Positions 5,735 to 9,060 of a stretch of 64,000 nucleotides of DNA are shown here, one piece after another. Positions within the stretch are counted from its first letter, which is position 1. Each line of letters opens with the position of its first letter. The translations under genes and the position numbers were made by a program. The notes below the pieces were generated by a model that was given only the letters and a program-made list of their open reading frames with translations, did not search any database and was not told the origin of the DNA. Source of the stretch: a virus; IMG/VR virus record IMGVR_UViG_3300046454_000714, positions 1 to 64,000 of that record; one strand, given 5' to 3'.

Positions 5735-6039
5735 ACCCCGACCTGTACGCGGCGTGGTTGACCGCCGGCAGCAACCTGCAGCCCGTCGGGGCGTGGCTCG
5801 GCCGGAACTGGATCTGGCTCGGCGCCGCAGTGGTGGCCGCCGGATTCGCCTGGTGGGCGCTGCGGCGGGAACTCCGGGGCGCCGGCGACCAGGTCGCCGC
5901 CATCCTCGCCGACCAGCCCCAGCCCCAGCCCGGCACTGACGCGGGGCTGTACCTCGACTGCGTCGCCATCTACGACGACTGCGACGAACTCGACCGCCTC
6001 CGCGACCTCATCGACCAGCACCGGAAGGAGAAGCCGTGA
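5731..6039 (+). CDS. membrane protein
   Basis: Coupled ATGA start, one TM helix. Confidence 0.65.
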   Translation: MNPDLYAAWLTAGSNLQPVGAWLGRNWIWLGAAVVAAGFAWWALRRELRGAGDQVAAILADQPQPQPGTDAGLYLDCVAIYDDCDELDRLRDLIDQHRKEKP

Positions 6040-6914
6040 CCACCGCCACCGATACCATCCCCGCACACGGCACCGACGCCCGCTACAAGGGCAACCGCAC
6101 CGGCACCCGGCCGCCCTGCCGGTGCAAGCTGTGCCAGCGCGGCCACCGGCGCGCCGACCTGGAACGGGAACTCCGCCGCCAACGCGGCGAACGCAGCCTC
6201 GTTCCCGTCGCCGAAGTCCTGCCGCACATCCTGATGCTGCGAGCGACCGGCATGAGCCAAACCATGATCGCCCGAGAGGCCGGCGTCGCCCAGTCCGCCA
6301 TCTCCTACGTCACCACCGGCCGCAACAAAACCTGCCAGGCGGACGTGGCCCGCCGGATCCTCACCGTCCGGCCGCACCGCTTCGACGGCAACGCCGAACG
6401 CCCCGCCATCGGATCCATCCGACGCGTCCGCGCCCTCTACAGCCTCGGCCACGGGCGCGCCGACATCTCCACACGCAGCGGCCTCAGCATCGCCAGCATC
6501 AGCCTCCTCGCCGAAGCCCGCTGGAACGTCATCGACAACAAGGCGGCCACCGCCCTCGCCGAGACCTACCGGCAACTCGTCCACCAGCGCGGCACCAACT
6601 GGAAGAACGAACGACGGGCCGCCCGCGAAGGCTGGGCGCCACCCGGCGCCTGGGACGACATCGACAACCCCGACTGTGAGCCAGACGCACCAGCCGTCCA
6701 GCTCAACTTCCACGAGCGCGCCCAGCTCCGCCGCGAAGAGATCATCCACTTCGCCTGGCACGGCGACACCCCCGAACAGATCCTCACCCGGCTCGACCAC
6801 GAGGTGTCTATCTCCACCGTCCGCCAGATCGTCCAGGAATGGCGCAGCGGCGAGAAGCGCGTGCGGCCCCAGCAGGAGAAGACGGCCAAGGCCGGGCTGG
6901 GGGCTGCGGCGTGA
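6036..6914 (+). CDS. HTH DNA-binding protein with N-terminal Zn-binding motif
   Basis: HGT..RY...CRCKLC; GMSQTMIAREAGVAQSAIS HTH; GWAPPGAWDDID. Confidence 0.8.
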   Translation: MTTATDTIPAHGTDARYKGNRTGTRPPCRCKLCQRGHRRADLERELRRQRGERSLVPVAEVLPHILMLRATGMSQTMIAREAGVAQSAISYVTTGRNKTCQADVARRILTVRPHRFDGNAERPAIGSIRRVRALYSLGHGRADISTRSGLSIASISLLAEARWNVIDNKAATALAETYRQLVHQRGTNWKNERRAAREGWAPPGAWDDIDNPDCEPDAPAVQLNFHERAQLRREEIIHFAWHGDTPEQILTRLDHEVSISTVRQIVQEWRSGEKRVRPQQEKTAKAGLGAAA

Positions 6915-8458
6915 CGCTCCGCATCGGCTCCCTGTTCACCGGCACCGGCGCCCTCGACCTGGCCGTCATGGACGCCTACGACGCCGACGTCCTCTGGCAC
7001 TCGCAATACGAGCCGCCGGACAAGAAGGGCAAGGAAGACGCCAACCAGTACGCCGCCCGCATCCTCGCCCGCCACTGGCCGACCATCCCCAACCTCGGCG
7101 ACATCACCAAAGTCGACTGGCCGGCCGTCCTCGACGAGCACGGGCCCATCGACATCCTCACCGGCGGCTTTCCCTGCCAAGACGTCTCATCCGCCGGCAA
7201 GCGCGTCGGCCTCGTACCTGATTCCCGCTCCGGACTGTGGAACCACATGGCCCGCGCCATCGCAGTCCTCCAACCACGATTGGTGATCATCGAAAATGTC
7301 GAAGGGCTCCTCTCAGCACCGGCTGCCAGCGACATGGAACCCTGCCCGAACTGTGTGGGAGACCGACACCCTGGGCCTCTACTGCGGGCATGCGGAGCCG
7401 TACTTGGAGACCTGGCCGGCCTCGGGTTCCATGCGGAATGGGCGCGCGTCGCAGCGTCGGAGGTCGGCGCTCCCCACCAGCGCAAACGGGTCTTCGTCTA
7501 CGCCTGGCCCGCTGATGTCGACCCCAGTGGCCTCGGACGGTGGGACCGATCGGGGCTCCTCGGCGGGTTGGGGACTTCGGGACGAGGCGCGGAAGCTGAT
7601 GCCCACCCCGCGGACCTCGGACACGAACGGGATCGGGACGCACGGCGCCGGGGGCATGGACCTGCGGACCGCAGTGTCGATGCTTCCGACGCCCAGAGCG
7701 CGGGATGGGAAGGGTGCGGGCTACGAGGACGATCTGCCGTCAACAGTGAACCGGCTGCTCCCGACGCCCACGGCGTCGAATCCCAACGACGGGGAGTCAT
7801 TGGAGTCCTGGGAGGCCAGGCGGCAGCGGAACCTGGCGAAGGGGATCAACGGGAACGGGCAGGGCACACCGCTCGCGATAGCGGTACGGCAACTGCCGAA
7901 CCCGACTGCCCCACCTGCGGGTGCCCCGAGTCCATCCACGACGCCGGAGGATTCTGCGCTGGCTGCCACGGCTGCACCGATCCCGAACTCGGACGGCCCG
8001 ATGAAGTTGCTGCCAACCCCGGCCGCATCGTTCCCCGGCACGACGGCGAACTTCCGGCCGGACGGGACGCCGTACAGCGAGGGCTACGGGATGACGCTCC
8101 TCGATGCGGTGCGGCTTCTTCCGACGCCCAGGGCGTCGGACAGCGAGAGGACGTCCTCAACCTACGGCCGGGGCAACCCGACCTTGACTGGGGCGATTAC
8201 GGACCCGCCATCCGCCGATGGGAAACAGTCCTCGGACGACGAGCCCCCTGGCCAACCGACGCTCTGGGGCGACTGAGCCCCGTCTTCACCGAATGGCTCA
8301 TGGGCCTCCCTGACGGCTGGGTCACCGACACCCCCGGACTCACCCGCGCCGCCATGCTCCGCGCCCTCGGCAACGGGGTCGTCCGTAGGCAAGCCGTCGC
8401 CGCCATCCGGCTCCTGCACGAGCGGGCCGTCAGTGACGACCAACGGGCCGCCGCATGA
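6911..8458 (+). CDS. DNA cytosine-C5 methyltransferase
   Basis: Motif I SLFTGTG, IV GGFPCQD, VI ENV, VIII PHQRKRVF, C-terminal EWLMGLP and LGNGVV. Confidence 0.92.
   Translation: MTLRIGSLFTGTGALDLAVMDAYDADVLWHSQYEPPDKKGKEDANQYAARILARHWPTIPNLGDITKVDWPAVLDEHGPIDILTGGFPCQDVSSAGKRVGLVPDSRSGLWNHMARAIAVLQPRLVIIENVEGLLSAPAASDMEPCPNCVGDRHPGPLLRACGAVLGDLAGLGFHAEWARVAASEVGAPHQRKRVFVYAWPADVDPSGLGRWDRSGLLGGLGTSGRGAEADAHPADLGHERDRDARRRGHGPADRSVDASDAQSAGWEGCGLRGRSAVNSEPAAPDAHGVESQRRGVIGVLGGQAAAEPGEGDQRERAGHTARDSGTATAEPDCPTCGCPESIHDAGGFCAGCHGCTDPELGRPDEVAANPGRIVPRHDGELPAGRDAVQRGLRDDAPRCGAASSDAQGVGQREDVLNLRPGQPDLDWGDYGPAIRRWETVLGRRAPWPTDALGRLSPVFTEWLMGLPDGWVTDTPGLTRAAMLRALGNGVVRRQAVAAIRLLHERAVSDDQRAAA
7296..8276 (+). 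CDS. nested +1-frame ORF inside the C5-MTase gene (candidate second subunit, LPTP-repeat protein)
   Basis: ATG inside the ENV codons (GAA AAT GTC), GGTGA upstream, high GC3 in this frame over about 7510-7890, seven LPTP-type repeats. Confidence 0.65.
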   Translation: MSKGSSQHRLPATWNPARTVWETDTLGLYCGHAEPYLETWPASGSMRNGRASQRRRSALPTSANGSSSTPGPLMSTPVASDGGTDRGSSAGWGLRDEARKLMPTPRTSDTNGIGTHGAGGMDLRTAVSMLPTPRARDGKGAGYEDDLPSTVNRLLPTPTASNPNDGESLESWEARRQRNLAKGINGNGQGTPLAIAVRQLPNPTAPPAGAPSPSTTPEDSALAATAAPIPNSDGPMKLLPTPAASFPGTTANFRPDGTPYSEGYGMTLLDAVRLLPTPRASDSERTSSTYGRGNPTLTGAITDPPSADGKQSSDDEPPGQPTLWGD

Positions 8459-8540
8459 CCGCCCACCCCCGTCCGCGTGCCGGGCCCTGACACCCATCCC
8501 GCACATCGGCCGGACATGCACCCCAAGGCAGGACATAGCG

Positions 8541-8562
8541 AAGCCCCGCCGTGGCGGGGCTG
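8541..8562. terminator. hairpin between convergent genes
   Basis: AGCCCCGCC-GT-GGCGGGGCT inverted repeat. Confidence 0.5.
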
Positions 8563-8580
8563 GGAGGAGACGAGGTGACG

Positions 8581-9060
8581 TCAGTCGGACTTGACCACGA
8601 GCTCGCGCGTCTCGCCAAGGGCGGCCAGGGCGCGCTCGTAGAAGTCCAGCGACACGATCATGGCGTAGCGCTGCCCGTGGTTGAGCAGAGCAGTCGGCTG
8701 ATCGCGGTGCGCAACAGTGCAGACCACGCTGGTCAGCTTGGGGCGCGCGAGGGACAGCGAAATCTCCCTGACGCCATCCTCTGTCACGACATCTCGGATG
8801 TTCCGTCGGTCCACGCGCGGCGAGTAGATGCGGTTGAACTCGGGGTCTTCCGCACGCACGGCCTCTTCCTCGGTTTTGGCCGCGGTCGGCCGATCGTCGA
8901 ACCACTCCACCTCGCGGCGGGCAACCCGCGGCCACCACTCCTTCAGTTTGGAGTGCTGCTCGAAGCGCACCTCGGGCTGATGGCTGATGCCTATGTACAG
9001 CAAAACGCCGCCCTCGTCGAAGAGTCGGTACAGGGCGGTGCGGTGGTCATCGAGCCACAT
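8581..9060 (-). CDS. GIY-YIG-like domain fused to Phd/YefM-like antitoxin domain
   Basis: ALYRLFD..LLYIGIS...RF.QH N-terminus; EISLSLARPKLTSVV...TALLNHGQRYAMIVSLDFYE C-terminus. Confidence 0.7.
   Translation of the reverse strand: MWLDDHRTALYRLFDEGGVLLYIGISHQPEVRFEQHSKLKEWWPRVARREVEWFDDRPTAAKTEEEAVRAEDPEFNRIYSPRVDRRNIRDVVTEDGVREISLSLARPKLTSVVCTVAHRDQPTALLNHGQRYAMIVSLDFYERALAALGETRELVVKSD

What the first reader, a model, noticed from the sequence alone, without database searches (positions are those of the whole stretch)
6911..8458. Dual-coding C5-methyltransferase with a nested 326-aa +1-frame ORF of LPTP repeats
Seen: both frames stay open for about 980 bp. The nested ATG sits inside motif VI (GAA AAT GTC). 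The GC3-biased frame switches: nested frame over about 7510-7890, MTase frame over about 7900-7990 (a CxxCxC..H..CxxCxxC cluster), nested frame again afterwards. The nested product has seven (L/M)PTP.AS(D/N)-like units. Known: M.EcoHK31I is a heterodimer whose beta subunit is encoded in an alternative frame inside the alpha gene. Inference: a second subunit supplying modular target-recognition repeats, or a frameshift-assembled enzyme.
Basis: partly seen in the sequence, partly recalled or inferred. Interest (0 to 1): 0.75.

Follow-up and report, generated by a model that had tools for sequence, protein, structure and literature searches.

The report
Two-frame phage cytosine methyltransferase gene
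One stretch of this actinophage genome is most likely read in two overlapping frames to make two chains of one DNA cytosine methyltransferase, a layout kept in many relatives and annotated inconsistently in the five phage records I checked.

Summary
Frame F0 (6911-8458) carries C5-methyltransferase motifs I-VIII and IX-X, separated by 223 Gly/Ala/Arg/Asp-rich codons. A +1 ORF (7296-8276) starts at an ATG inside the ENV motif. It encodes a conserved 72-aa head ("O") and LLPTP-led units.

It is neither chance nor sequencing error. Of 99 related loci, 91 have motifs IX-X in the catalytic frame. All 91 keep that frame free of stops, although 32 stops were expected over 32 genome loci. The variable codon position switches frame where the coding frame is predicted to switch. 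The ENV Asn is AAT in 22 of 22 such loci, against 2 of 70 Asn codons elsewhere. Independent metagenome contigs show no indel inside the gene.

Best reading (0.68): alpha is F0 read straight through. Beta is the nested product and supplies the target-recognition part in trans. One cassette (7907-7993) is instead selected in F0, as a Cys/His cluster. A frameshift-assembled single chain is disfavoured.

The closest known case is M.EcoHK31I, but the labour is divided differently. The units behave as shuffled modules, and multispecificity is inferred only. Earlier notes of this scan describe the same layout on other DNA.

The parts
6911..8458 (+). Alpha ORF (frame F0), 515 codons plus stop, from GTG 6911, which overlaps the upstream ORF's stop as GTGA. 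It runs: catalytic part, out-of-frame spacer, motifs IX-X.
   Evidence: PF00145 scores 89.6 bits (cut-off 22) on residues 28-223 of the 539-aa ORF only.
6911..7516 (+). Alpha N part, motifs I-VIII: FTGTG at 6935-6949, PCQ at 7172-7180, ENV at 7292-7300, QRKR at 7478-7489.
   Evidence: The profile of single-chain relatives matches M.HhaI residues 12-176 over this part only.
7282..7288 (+). GGTGATC, 7 nt upstream of the nested ATG. It may act as a ribosome-binding stretch. That it complements the 16S rRNA 3' tail is recalled, not from a call.
   Evidence: GTGATC lies in the 12 nt before the Glu codon in 22 of 22 ATG-in-ENV loci. It also encodes Val-Ile of motif VI, so this is weak evidence.
7296..8276 (+). 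Beta ORF (nested, +1 frame), 326 aa: O head plus LLPTP-led units plus a tail that overlaps the start of alpha's C part.
   Evidence: Relatives: 879 proteins at E <= 0.001 among 8000 scored candidates; 3370 cluster representatives in the exhaustive search. No Pfam or PDB match. phrog_1008 positions 68-215.
7296..7511 (+). O head of beta (72 aa), encoded over alpha's motifs VI-VIII. This is true dual coding.
   Evidence: invariant W14, W21, T39, W40, P41, S43, G44, R47, G49; the nested frame dominates selection at F0 codons +11 to +34 after ENV; the +1 frame of this region is not O-like in single-chain relatives.
7512..8198 (+). Unit region of beta, with unit starts at 7512, 7596, 7680, 7755, 8007 and 8115. 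In F0 the same DNA is the Gly/Ala/Arg/Asp-rich spacer of alpha (7517-8185, 223 codons, no stop).
7907..7993 (+). Cys/His cassette selected in F0 (CPTCxC..H..CxGC..CTDPELG). In beta it reads as a Pro/Ala/Ser/Thr-rich linker.
   Evidence: F0 GC3 is higher here; 7 distinct copies in 6 loci, with F0 position 3 the most variable (0.284 against 0.149 and 0.174). A 59%-identical second copy in L010 keeps the Cys and His residues.
8186..8458 (+). Alpha C part, motifs IX-X: TEW at 8288-8296, GNG at 8369-8377, stop at 8456-8458. Beta's last 26 codons (8199-8276) overlap its start.
   Evidence: (phrog_1008 positions 203-328).

Best explanation
The locus encodes a two-chain DNA (cytosine-5) methyltransferase from one stretch of DNA read in two frames.

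Alpha is F0, 6911-8458. It is translated straight through: motifs I-VIII, then about 223 residues that are mostly the out-of-frame reading of beta's units, then motifs IX-X. That middle stretch probably acts as a loop. It holds one cassette (7907-7993) that really is selected in F0, a Cys/His cluster that may bind a metal.

Beta is the +1 frame, 7296-8276. It starts on its own at the ATG formed by the AAT Asn codon of ENV. Its 72-aa O head is encoded over motifs VI-VIII. In single-chain relatives O sits directly after motif VIII, so I infer that it docks beta onto the catalytic domain. The six or seven LLPTP-led units that follow take the place of the target-recognition domain, between motif VIII and motif IX, and are supplied in trans.

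The enzyme is probably an orphan phage methylase that protects phage DNA from host restriction.

Shown here: both frames are conserved and selected where stated, F0 is kept open, the start codon is conserved, and the units are exchanged as cassettes. Inferred: that both chains are made, that they bind each other, and that the units read DNA.
For: (1) Conserved layout. One search examined 99 related loci. In 91 of them motifs IX-X lie in the catalytic frame, and none of the 91 has a stop in that frame between the two parts. 51 have all LLPTP-type starts in +1, as the window does. 40 have some in F0. 5 have IX-X in +1, with F0 ending earlier. 3 end before a C part.

(2) F0 openness is selected. 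One search covered 16 window-type loci: the window, phage Darolandstone and 14 IMG/VR loci. All are open, with P(open) under synonymous-codon shuffling between 0.002 and 0.595 (window 0.011). In 32 genome loci there are 0 stops against 32.4 expected in sum, while the third frame has 54. Where the units are in frame with N, the minus-1 frame does carry stops (L019 one, L021 two).

(3) Frame-specific selection. For the unit at 7755 (15 distinct copies), diversity at nested positions 1/2/3 is 0.136/0.098/0.372. In 18 Streptomyces orthologues the most variable position switches from F0 position 3 to F0 position 1 exactly over the +1-encoded unit, then back. Within the window-type overlap, F0 codons +11 to +34 after ENV vary most at the nested third position.

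(4) Own start. ENV uses AAT in 22 of 22 loci whose nested ORF begins there. Other Asn codons upstream are AAC 68 and AAT 2.

(5) O is a real domain. It follows motif VIII in frame in the single-chain proteins P0121, P0123, P0124 and P0129 and in loci L021 and L103. In those loci the +1 reading of motif VII is not O-like.

(6) Relatives split the enzyme in annotated form. Arthrobacter phage Andrew gp43 and gp44 overlap by 239 nt. phrog_1008 matches the nested product at positions 68-215 and the F0 C-terminus at 203-328.

(7) Not an assembly artefact. Contigs of four other metagenome runs cover 6800-8584 with no indel inside the gene.

(8) Feasibility. C5 methyltransferase fragments cut between motif VIII and the TRD complement in vivo, and M.AquI and M.EcoHK31I are natural two-chain enzymes (PMC3404938, passages).
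Against: There is no protein-level, ribosome-profiling or RNA evidence.

The ribosome-binding match is weak and also encodes Val-Ile. The consensus scan found no promoter-like site in 6700-8700.

In the 18 Streptomyces orthologues with a short +1 ORF, the part of +1 that overlaps motifs VII-VIII shows no selection signal of its own; F0 position 3 stays the most variable. So where beta starts in that class is uncertain.

An alpha chain with a 223-residue Gly/Ala/Arg/Asp-rich insert might be unstable.

How O came to overlap motifs VI-VIII is unexplained. Single-chain relatives encode O separately, and I found no trace of a duplication.

Beta has no solved or modelled relative. The profile search of PDB gave one hit, at E 0.13. 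The Atlas model of the homologue P0024 has pLDDT 0.55.
Confidence: 0.68

Rival explanations
1. Frameshift-assembled single chain. Ribosomes read F0 through motif VIII, slip +1 to read the units, then slip -1 near 8190 to read motifs IX-X. The product would be an ordinary one-chain methyltransferase.
For: Single-chain relatives with the order N-O-units-C exist. One metagenome protein, P0055, has motifs VI-VIII in frame with units. In the 40 loci with a short +1 stretch, only one or two units would need recoding.
Against: This model needs F0 open only up to the first slip, yet F0 is kept free of stops through the whole unit region. It needs the +1 frame open only after motif VIII, yet that frame opens at ENV with a conserved ATG and a selected O head, which a ribosome coming from F0 could not read. 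No X XXY YYZ heptamer lies within 120 nt of the return junction in 18 of 18 loci. At that junction the last unit and the conserved LDWG..Y of the C part use the same nucleotides, so one slip would lose one of them. Two low-efficiency slips would also give little product.
Confidence: 0.1
2. Beta is made, but it is not the recognition subunit of this enzyme. It could be a regulator or inhibitor of alpha, or a separate DNA-binding or anti-defence protein that merely shares the DNA.
For: Beta has no family or structural assignment. The Cys/His cassette shows that alpha's spacer is not wholly without function.
Against: In single-chain and Andrew-type relatives the same O head and units are covalently part of the methyltransferase, between motif VIII and motif IX, where the TRD lies. 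Alpha on its own has no recognisable TRD.
Confidence: 0.12
3. Beta is extended by a -1 slip into motifs IX-X, giving an Andrew-type C-terminal half. The F0 product past motif VIII would then be irrelevant.
For: Five relatives encode exactly that C-terminal half in one frame (L002, L030, L040, L049, L092), as do phages Ovechkin and Geodirt.
Against: Selection for an open F0 is unexplained under this model. There is no slippery site, and the junction is an overlap.
Confidence: 0.05
4. Artefact or decaying gene. Compensating sequencing indels, or a frameshifted pseudogene in GC-rich DNA where off-frame ORFs are common.
For: The window is 69% G+C, and long off-frame ORFs abound around the gene.
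Against: The same frame pattern recurs in 91 of 99 related loci from phages and from many actinobacterial genomes. Each segment shows purifying selection in its expected frame. Contigs from four other runs carry no indel inside the gene.
Confidence: 0.02

Closest known systems
M.EcoHK31I (E. coli, YGGCCR). Seen in PMC2836561 (passages) and PMC3404938 (passages). Lee, Kam and Shaw 1995 seen only as a cited reference.
   Same: A two-chain C5 methyltransferase whose beta chain is encoded entirely inside the alpha gene in another reading frame. Silencing beta's starts with changes silent in alpha is the established test.
   Different: There alpha holds motifs I-VIII, X and the TRD, and beta holds motif IX. 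Here alpha holds I-VIII, IX and X, while beta holds an anchor head plus the TRD-position units. Here beta's start overlaps motifs VI-VIII, alpha carries a long out-of-frame spacer kept open by selection, and the arrangement spans a family with 3370 cluster representatives. I did not test sequence relatedness of the two beta chains, because no M.EcoHK31I sequence was on hand.
M.AquI (CYCGRG). Seen in PMC3404938 (passages). Karreman and de Waard 1990 seen only as a cited reference.
   Same: Natural split in the variable region: one chain with motifs I-VIII, another with the rest of the variable region and motifs IX-X. Relatives such as Arthrobacter phage Andrew gp43/gp44 and phages Ovechkin and Geodirt have this division.
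   Different: In the window motifs IX-X are back in the catalytic frame. In all these relatives the two genes overlap by about 200-240 nt in different frames. I have not seen such an overlap described for M.AquI in the passages I read.
Multispecific C5 methyltransferases of Bacillus phages (SPR, phi3T, rho11, H2). Seen in PMC8936443 (Discussion passage). Wilke et al. 1988 seen only as a cited reference.
   Same: Several non-identical recognition modules in tandem between motif VIII and motif IX, in a phage orphan methylase. Here there are 192 unit sub-types. Each of the 26 commonest occurs once per protein, and 262 proteins show 214 distinct unit orders.
   Different: The Bacillus enzymes are single chains. 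Here the units are shorter (mostly 25-49 aa), share an LLPTP lead, lie on a separate chain, and have no tested specificity.
ShiLan-type hidden out-of-frame HNH inserts in actinophage methylase genes. Seen in PMC11855218 and PMC9957025 (abstracts and passages).
   Same: A second ORF in another frame inside an actinophage methylase gene. The host frame stays free of stops across it and is thought to be read through as a loop.
   Different: Those papers treat the insert as a selfish homing-endonuclease insertion. Here the nested ORF encodes part of the enzyme itself. I did not compare the sequences.
PHROG family phrog_1008, annotated 'DNA methyltransferase'
   Same: It matches both the nested product (E 1.6e-23, profile positions 68-215) and the F0 C-terminus (E 1.8e-32, positions 203-328).
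   Different: The family models one protein (head, units, motifs IX-X). In the window that protein is divided between two frames.

Membership tests
DNA (cytosine-5) methyltransferase (Pfam PF00145) | Score above the Pfam gathering cut-off | tested here: met
   89.6 bits against a cut-off of 22, but only residues 28-223 align (profile positions 2-161 of 324).
DNA (cytosine-5) methyltransferase (Pfam PF00145) | Motifs I (FxGxG), IV (PCQ), VI (ENV), VIII (QxRxR), IX and X (GNG/AV) in canonical order in one frame. The motif names are recalled. | tested here: met
   FTGTG, PCQ, ENV, QRKR, TEWLMGLPDGW and GNGV are all in F0.
DNA (cytosine-5) methyltransferase (NCBIfam TIGR00675 dcm) | Score above the curated cut-off | tested here: not met
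   84.6 bits against a cut-off of 100.65. The C-terminal half of the model is not matched by F0.
M.EcoHK31I-type nested two-chain methyltransferase | Beta ORF lies wholly inside the alpha ORF in another frame | tested here: met
   7296-8276 lies inside 6911-8458, in the +1 frame.
M.EcoHK31I-type nested two-chain methyltransferase | Alpha carries the TRD and beta carries motif IX | tested here: not met
   motif IX is in F0. The TRD-position units are in the nested frame.
M.EcoHK31I-type nested two-chain methyltransferase | Both chains are required for methylation | not testable with these tools
   This needs expression assays. The complex and fold predictors were closed.
M.AquI-type split methyltransferase | Motifs IX-X lie on the second chain together with the distal variable region | tested here: not met
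   the C part is in F0 in the window. The feature is met in relatives L002, L030, L040, L049, L092, L104 and L105.
Multispecific phage C5 methyltransferases | Tandem, non-identical recognition modules between motif VIII and motif IX | tested here: inconclusive
   The modular, once-per-protein, shuffled units fit. Whether each one recognises a target was not tested.
Multispecific phage C5 methyltransferases | More than one target sequence is methylated | not testable with these tools
   This needs bisulfite, EM-seq or nanopore methylome data.
Programmed ribosomal frameshift gene | Conserved slippery site at the frame junction, with the zero frame closed downstream | tested here: not met
   0 of 18 loci have an X XXY YYZ heptamer in phase; the zero frame is kept open rather than closed.

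The most novel reading that the evidence does not exclude
Beta is a detachable, combinatorial specificity subunit. Each LLPTP-led unit would be an independent target-recognising module, so one catalytic alpha chain methylates several sequences. Phages would re-tool their anti-restriction spectrum by swapping cassettes in a region that must stay readable in two frames at once. The second frame is used for alpha's own Cys/His cassette. This would be a natural, modular, split multispecific C5 methyltransferase, spread over a family with thousands of cluster representatives in Actinobacteria and their phages.
Probability: 0.3. Interest if true: 0.85.

Novelty: new variant of a known kind. Interest (0 to 1): 0.7.

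Why it matters
If the two-chain reading holds, one of the commonest methyltransferase types of Actinobacteria and actinophages is a dual-coding gene. Records annotate it inconsistently. Among the five phage records I opened, it is filed as one long gene (Darolandstone, Philonius), as two genes with the second start placed too late (Ovechkin), with the catalytic half left out (Geodirt), or as an overlapping pair (Andrew).

It would make nested-gene C5 methyltransferases a widespread design rather than the single enzyme named in the papers I read. It would give a clean natural case of long same-strand overlap with alternating frame-specific selection. It would also offer a naturally split enzyme with a separate specificity chain, of the kind that has been engineered for targeted methylation (PMC2836561, passages).

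It also bears on phage-host conflict. Near-identical phages differ only in their cassette sets.

Tried and rejected
Sequencing artefact: rejected.

O as a mere by-product of conserved motif VII: rejected for the window type. The +1 reading of motif VII is not O-like in single-chain loci (L103 i-E 3.1, L021 no hit), against 5.6e-37 in the window and 7.5e-07 in L085. Selection is nested-frame-dominated at F0 codons +11 to +34. For the short-ORF class it stays open.

Origin of single-chain forms by duplication of the overlap: no trace found. No motif VI-VIII-like reading appears in other frames of the O region of L021 or L103. A viral scan found nothing. The metagenome scan returned only a 33% relative, L103.

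Single-linkage clustering of units merged 818 of 929 into one family and was uninformative. It was replaced by greedy clustering at 60% identity.

The whole-overlap position statistic was ambiguous (0.166/0.133/0.237), because two allelic forms were mixed. It was replaced by the sliding analysis.

Families and structures: nothing for beta in Pfam or NCBIfam, in PDB by sequence (P0083, no hit at E <= 1) or by profile (one hit at E 0.13). The Atlas gave only unnamed clusters.

Consensus scan: 0 promoter-like and 0 terminator-like sites.

No RNA holder listed, so nothing can be said on expression.

Literature: searches found no description of this layout or of LLPTP units in methyltransferases. 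Searches gave the related papers cited above. Supplementary files were not consulted.
Full report
WHAT IS THERE. The window is part of an 87.5-kb IMG/VR virus record with 69% G+C. Frame F0 holds an ORF at 6839-8458. Homology starts at GTG 6911, which overlaps the stop of the upstream helix-turn-helix ORF as GTGA. F0 carries motif I (FTGTG, 6935), IV (PCQ, 7172), VI (ENV, 7292-7300) and VIII (QRKR, 7478). After 223 codons rich in Gly, Ala, Arg and Asp (116 of 223) it carries motif IX (TEWLMGLPDGW, 8288) and motif X (GNGV, 8369). Pfam PF00145 matches only residues 28-223 of the 539-aa ORF. A +1 ORF at 7296-8276 (326 aa) starts at the ATG formed by GAA AAT GTC. It has no Pfam, NCBIfam or PDB match. 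GC3 favours F0 up to about 7230, the nested frame over 7290-7470 and 7500-7860, F0 over 7889-7978, the nested frame over 7979-8250, and F0 afterwards.

THE NESTED FRAME ENCODES A REAL, WIDESPREAD PROTEIN. tblastn of the nested product finds 167 phage records, all under genes annotated as DNA methylase or methyltransferase or their neighbours. By organism they are Mycobacterium 82, Arthrobacter 40, Gordonia 33, Propionibacterium 6, Streptomyces 5 and one other. The word-indexed protein search gives 879 hits among 8000 scored candidates, and none of the 120 listed has a Pfam domain. The exhaustive search gives 3370 cluster representatives at E <= 0.001, 950 at 1e-10 and 49 at 1e-30. An alignment of 19 homologues shows a conserved 72-residue head, which I call O, with invariant W14, W21, T39, W40, P41, S43, G44, R47 and G49. 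Behind it lie units led by LLPTP that are present or absent as whole blocks.

FOUR GENE LAYOUTS IN ONE FAMILY. I fetched 19 viral loci, 80 genome loci, mostly Streptomyces, Amycolatopsis, Lentzea and Nocardiopsis, and five phage records. One search classified 99 loci. It left out L003 (the window's own copy), L017 (a truncated duplicate of L016) and L022 (no catalytic part).
- In 91 loci motifs IX-X lie in the catalytic frame. None of these has a stop in that frame between the two parts.
- 51 of the 91 have all LLPTP-type starts in +1, which is the window layout. Streptomyces phage Darolandstone gp38 is one of them.
- 40 of the 91 have a short +1 ORF (commonly 119 aa: O remnant plus one unit), with further units in F0.
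- 5 loci have motifs IX-X in +1, with F0 ending after motif VIII. Arthrobacter phage Andrew gp43/gp44, annotated as two genes overlapping by 239 nt, is one of them.
- 3 loci end before a C part.
Phages Ovechkin and Geodirt are of the Andrew type, and Philonius is of the short-ORF type. Single-chain forms also exist, with O directly after motif VIII, then units, then motifs IX-X. They are the proteins P0121, P0123, P0124 and P0129 and the loci L021 and L103. phrog_1008 models the head-units-IX-X protein. In the window it matches the nested product at profile positions 68-215 and the F0 C-terminus at 203-328.

IS F0 OPEN BY CHANCE? No. I shuffled synonymous codons of the nested frame between motif VIII and the C part. 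This leaves F0 open in 1.1% of trials for the window, and in 0.2% to 59.5% across 16 window-type loci, all of which are open. The third frame carries the expected number of stops. In 32 further genome loci F0 has 0 stops against 32.4 expected in sum, and the third frame has 54. These loci are related, so the numbers are not independent probabilities, but the direction is uniform. In loci where the units are in frame with the catalytic part, the minus-1 frame does carry stops (L019, L021).

WHICH FRAME IS SELECTED WHERE?
- For the unit at 7755 (15 distinct copies), pairwise diversity at nested positions 1/2/3 is 0.136/0.098/0.372.
- In 18 gaplessly comparable Streptomyces orthologues of the short-ORF class, the most variable position is F0 position 3 everywhere except nt 1981-2100 of the loci. 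That stretch is exactly the +1-encoded unit. There F0 position 1 (the +1 third position) reaches 0.27-0.28, against 0.02-0.05 for the other two positions.
- In eight distinct window-type loci the overlap is interleaved. Selection is F0-dominated at ENV and at motif VIII, nested-frame-dominated at F0 codons +11 to +34 (the W..W..E part of O), and both positions are low over motif VII, which is also WPASGSMRNG in the nested frame.
- The cassette at 7907-7993 behaves the other way. Seven distinct copies in six loci vary most at F0 position 3 (0.284). They keep C-P-T-C-x-C, His and the later Cys residues, including a 59%-identical second copy in L010. The nested reading there is a Pro/Ala/Ser/Thr-rich stretch.

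START OF BETA. In 21 of the 99 loci, and in the window, the first start of the +1 ORF is the ATG inside ENV. In those 22 loci the ENV Asn codon is AAT in 22 of 22. Other Asn codons upstream in F0 are AAC 68 and AAT 2. Loci with AAC start the +1 ORF at other codons, for example a GTG 22 nt after ENV. GTGATC precedes the ATG in all 22, but it also encodes Val-Ile of motif VI, so I give it little weight.

RETURN JUNCTION. The last unit in +1 and the conserved LDWG.Y.PAI.RWE of the C part use the same nucleotides. Different last units abut the same C part. No X XXY YYZ heptamer in phase lies from 120 nt before to 40 nt after the junction in 18 of 18 loci. F0 has no start codon near the C part. Beta stops 81 nt into the C part, just before motif IX. 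So motifs IX-X can be reached only by reading F0 through.

MODULARITY. I split 262 of 270 fetched proteins at LLPTP-type leads, which gave 929 units, mostly 25-49 aa. At 60% identity they fall into 192 sub-types. Each of the 26 commonest occurs exactly once per protein, and there are 214 different unit orders. The window and locus L007 are identical base for base over the blocks from 6911 to 7390 (1-2 differences per 60-nt block to about 7510), and nearly identical from 8150 onwards. Between those points they differ by whole cassettes. An 84-nt unit and the Cys/His cassette are absent from L007, and two other units are present there. The net length difference is 3 nt. This is the pattern of exchangeable modules, as in the multispecific Bacillus phage enzymes (PMC8936443, Discussion passage). 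Specificity itself was not tested.

ARTEFACT CHECK. Contigs of four other rhizosphere metagenome runs (X4-X7, from four studies that may belong to one campaign) tile 6800-8584. They show no insertion or deletion inside 6911-8458. The only listed indel is at 8531. One contig in X6 replaces 7483-7595 by 23 other letters, a net change of -90 nt, which is a multiple of three.

MECHANISM. I conclude that two chains are made. Alpha runs I-VIII, spacer with Cys/His cassette, IX-X. Beta is O plus units. Beta stands in for the target-recognition domain, and O is the likely docking piece, because in single-chain relatives it is the segment fused to motif VIII. Fragment complementation of C5 methyltransferases cut between motif VIII and the TRD, and the natural two-chain enzymes M.AquI and M.EcoHK31I, show such assembly is feasible (PMC3404938, passages). 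Shown: conservation, frame-specific selection, stop avoidance, start-codon conservation and cassette exchange. Inferred: translation of both frames, binding, DNA recognition and anti-restriction use. There is no restriction gene next to the methylase. The neighbours give only weak helix-turn-helix, GIY-YIG and Phd-like matches below Pfam cut-offs.

WHAT SPEAKS AGAINST, OR IS MISSING. There are no protein or RNA data. No promoter-like site was found. For the short-ORF class, the part of +1 that overlaps motifs VII-VIII shows no separate selection.

COMPARISON AND NOVELTY. The gene layout is that of M.EcoHK31I, with beta nested in another frame of alpha (PMC2836561, passages). The division of labour differs: there beta carries motif IX, and here it carries the head and the TRD-position units. 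The Andrew-type relatives resemble M.AquI. The read-through of an out-of-frame insert recalls the ShiLan hidden HNH elements of other actinophage methylases (PMC11855218 and PMC9957025, abstracts and passages). My searches found no description of this layout. Earlier notes of this scan describe the same layout on other DNA. They are not independent evidence. One of them led me to the ShiLan papers. I rate it a new variant of a known kind.

Noticed in passing
L020:1895-3145 (IMG/VR locus) and protein P0027: A LAGLIDADG homing-endonuclease ORF sits in the +1 frame between ENV and motif VII, fused upstream of the O head. F0 stays free of stops through the roughly 390-nt insert and resumes with motifs VII-VIII.
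   Followed up: partly
proteins P0122, P0138, P0140, P0148: Single-chain relatives of 759-843 aa carry Hint and intein-type Pfam domains (PF13403, and in P0148 also PF07591 and PF14528) beside PF00145.
   Followed up: no
L105 (Gordonia phage Geodirt), L104 (Mycobacterium phage Ovechkin), L106 (Mycobacterium phage Philonius): Annotation is inconsistent. In Geodirt only the +1 C-terminal half is annotated and the catalytic half is not. Ovechkin gp70 is started about 450 nt downstream of the start of its open frame. Philonius is one long gene with an unannotated 172-aa +1 ORF.
   Followed up: partly
window 7310-7400 and loci L004, L006, L001: There are two alternative forms of the motif VI-VII linker. 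One reads DMEPCPNCVGD.H in F0, the other GLGLDAEALEEE-like. In the nested frame both keep the W..W..E..WP.SG pattern.
   Followed up: partly
window 8581-9060, minus strand: A 159-aa ORF downstream has weak GIY-YIG (E 0.003) and Phd/YefM antitoxin (E 0.0016) matches. Both are below the Pfam cut-offs.
   Followed up: no
window 6036-6914: The upstream 292-aa ORF has weak helix-turn-helix matches. Its stop overlaps the methyltransferase start as GTGA, which suggests coupled translation.
   Followed up: no
protein P0055 (JGI metagenome): This gene call has motifs VI-VIII in frame with the units, and its frame changes again near the C part. It is either a natural fused variant or an assembly error. 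I did not see the DNA.
   Followed up: no
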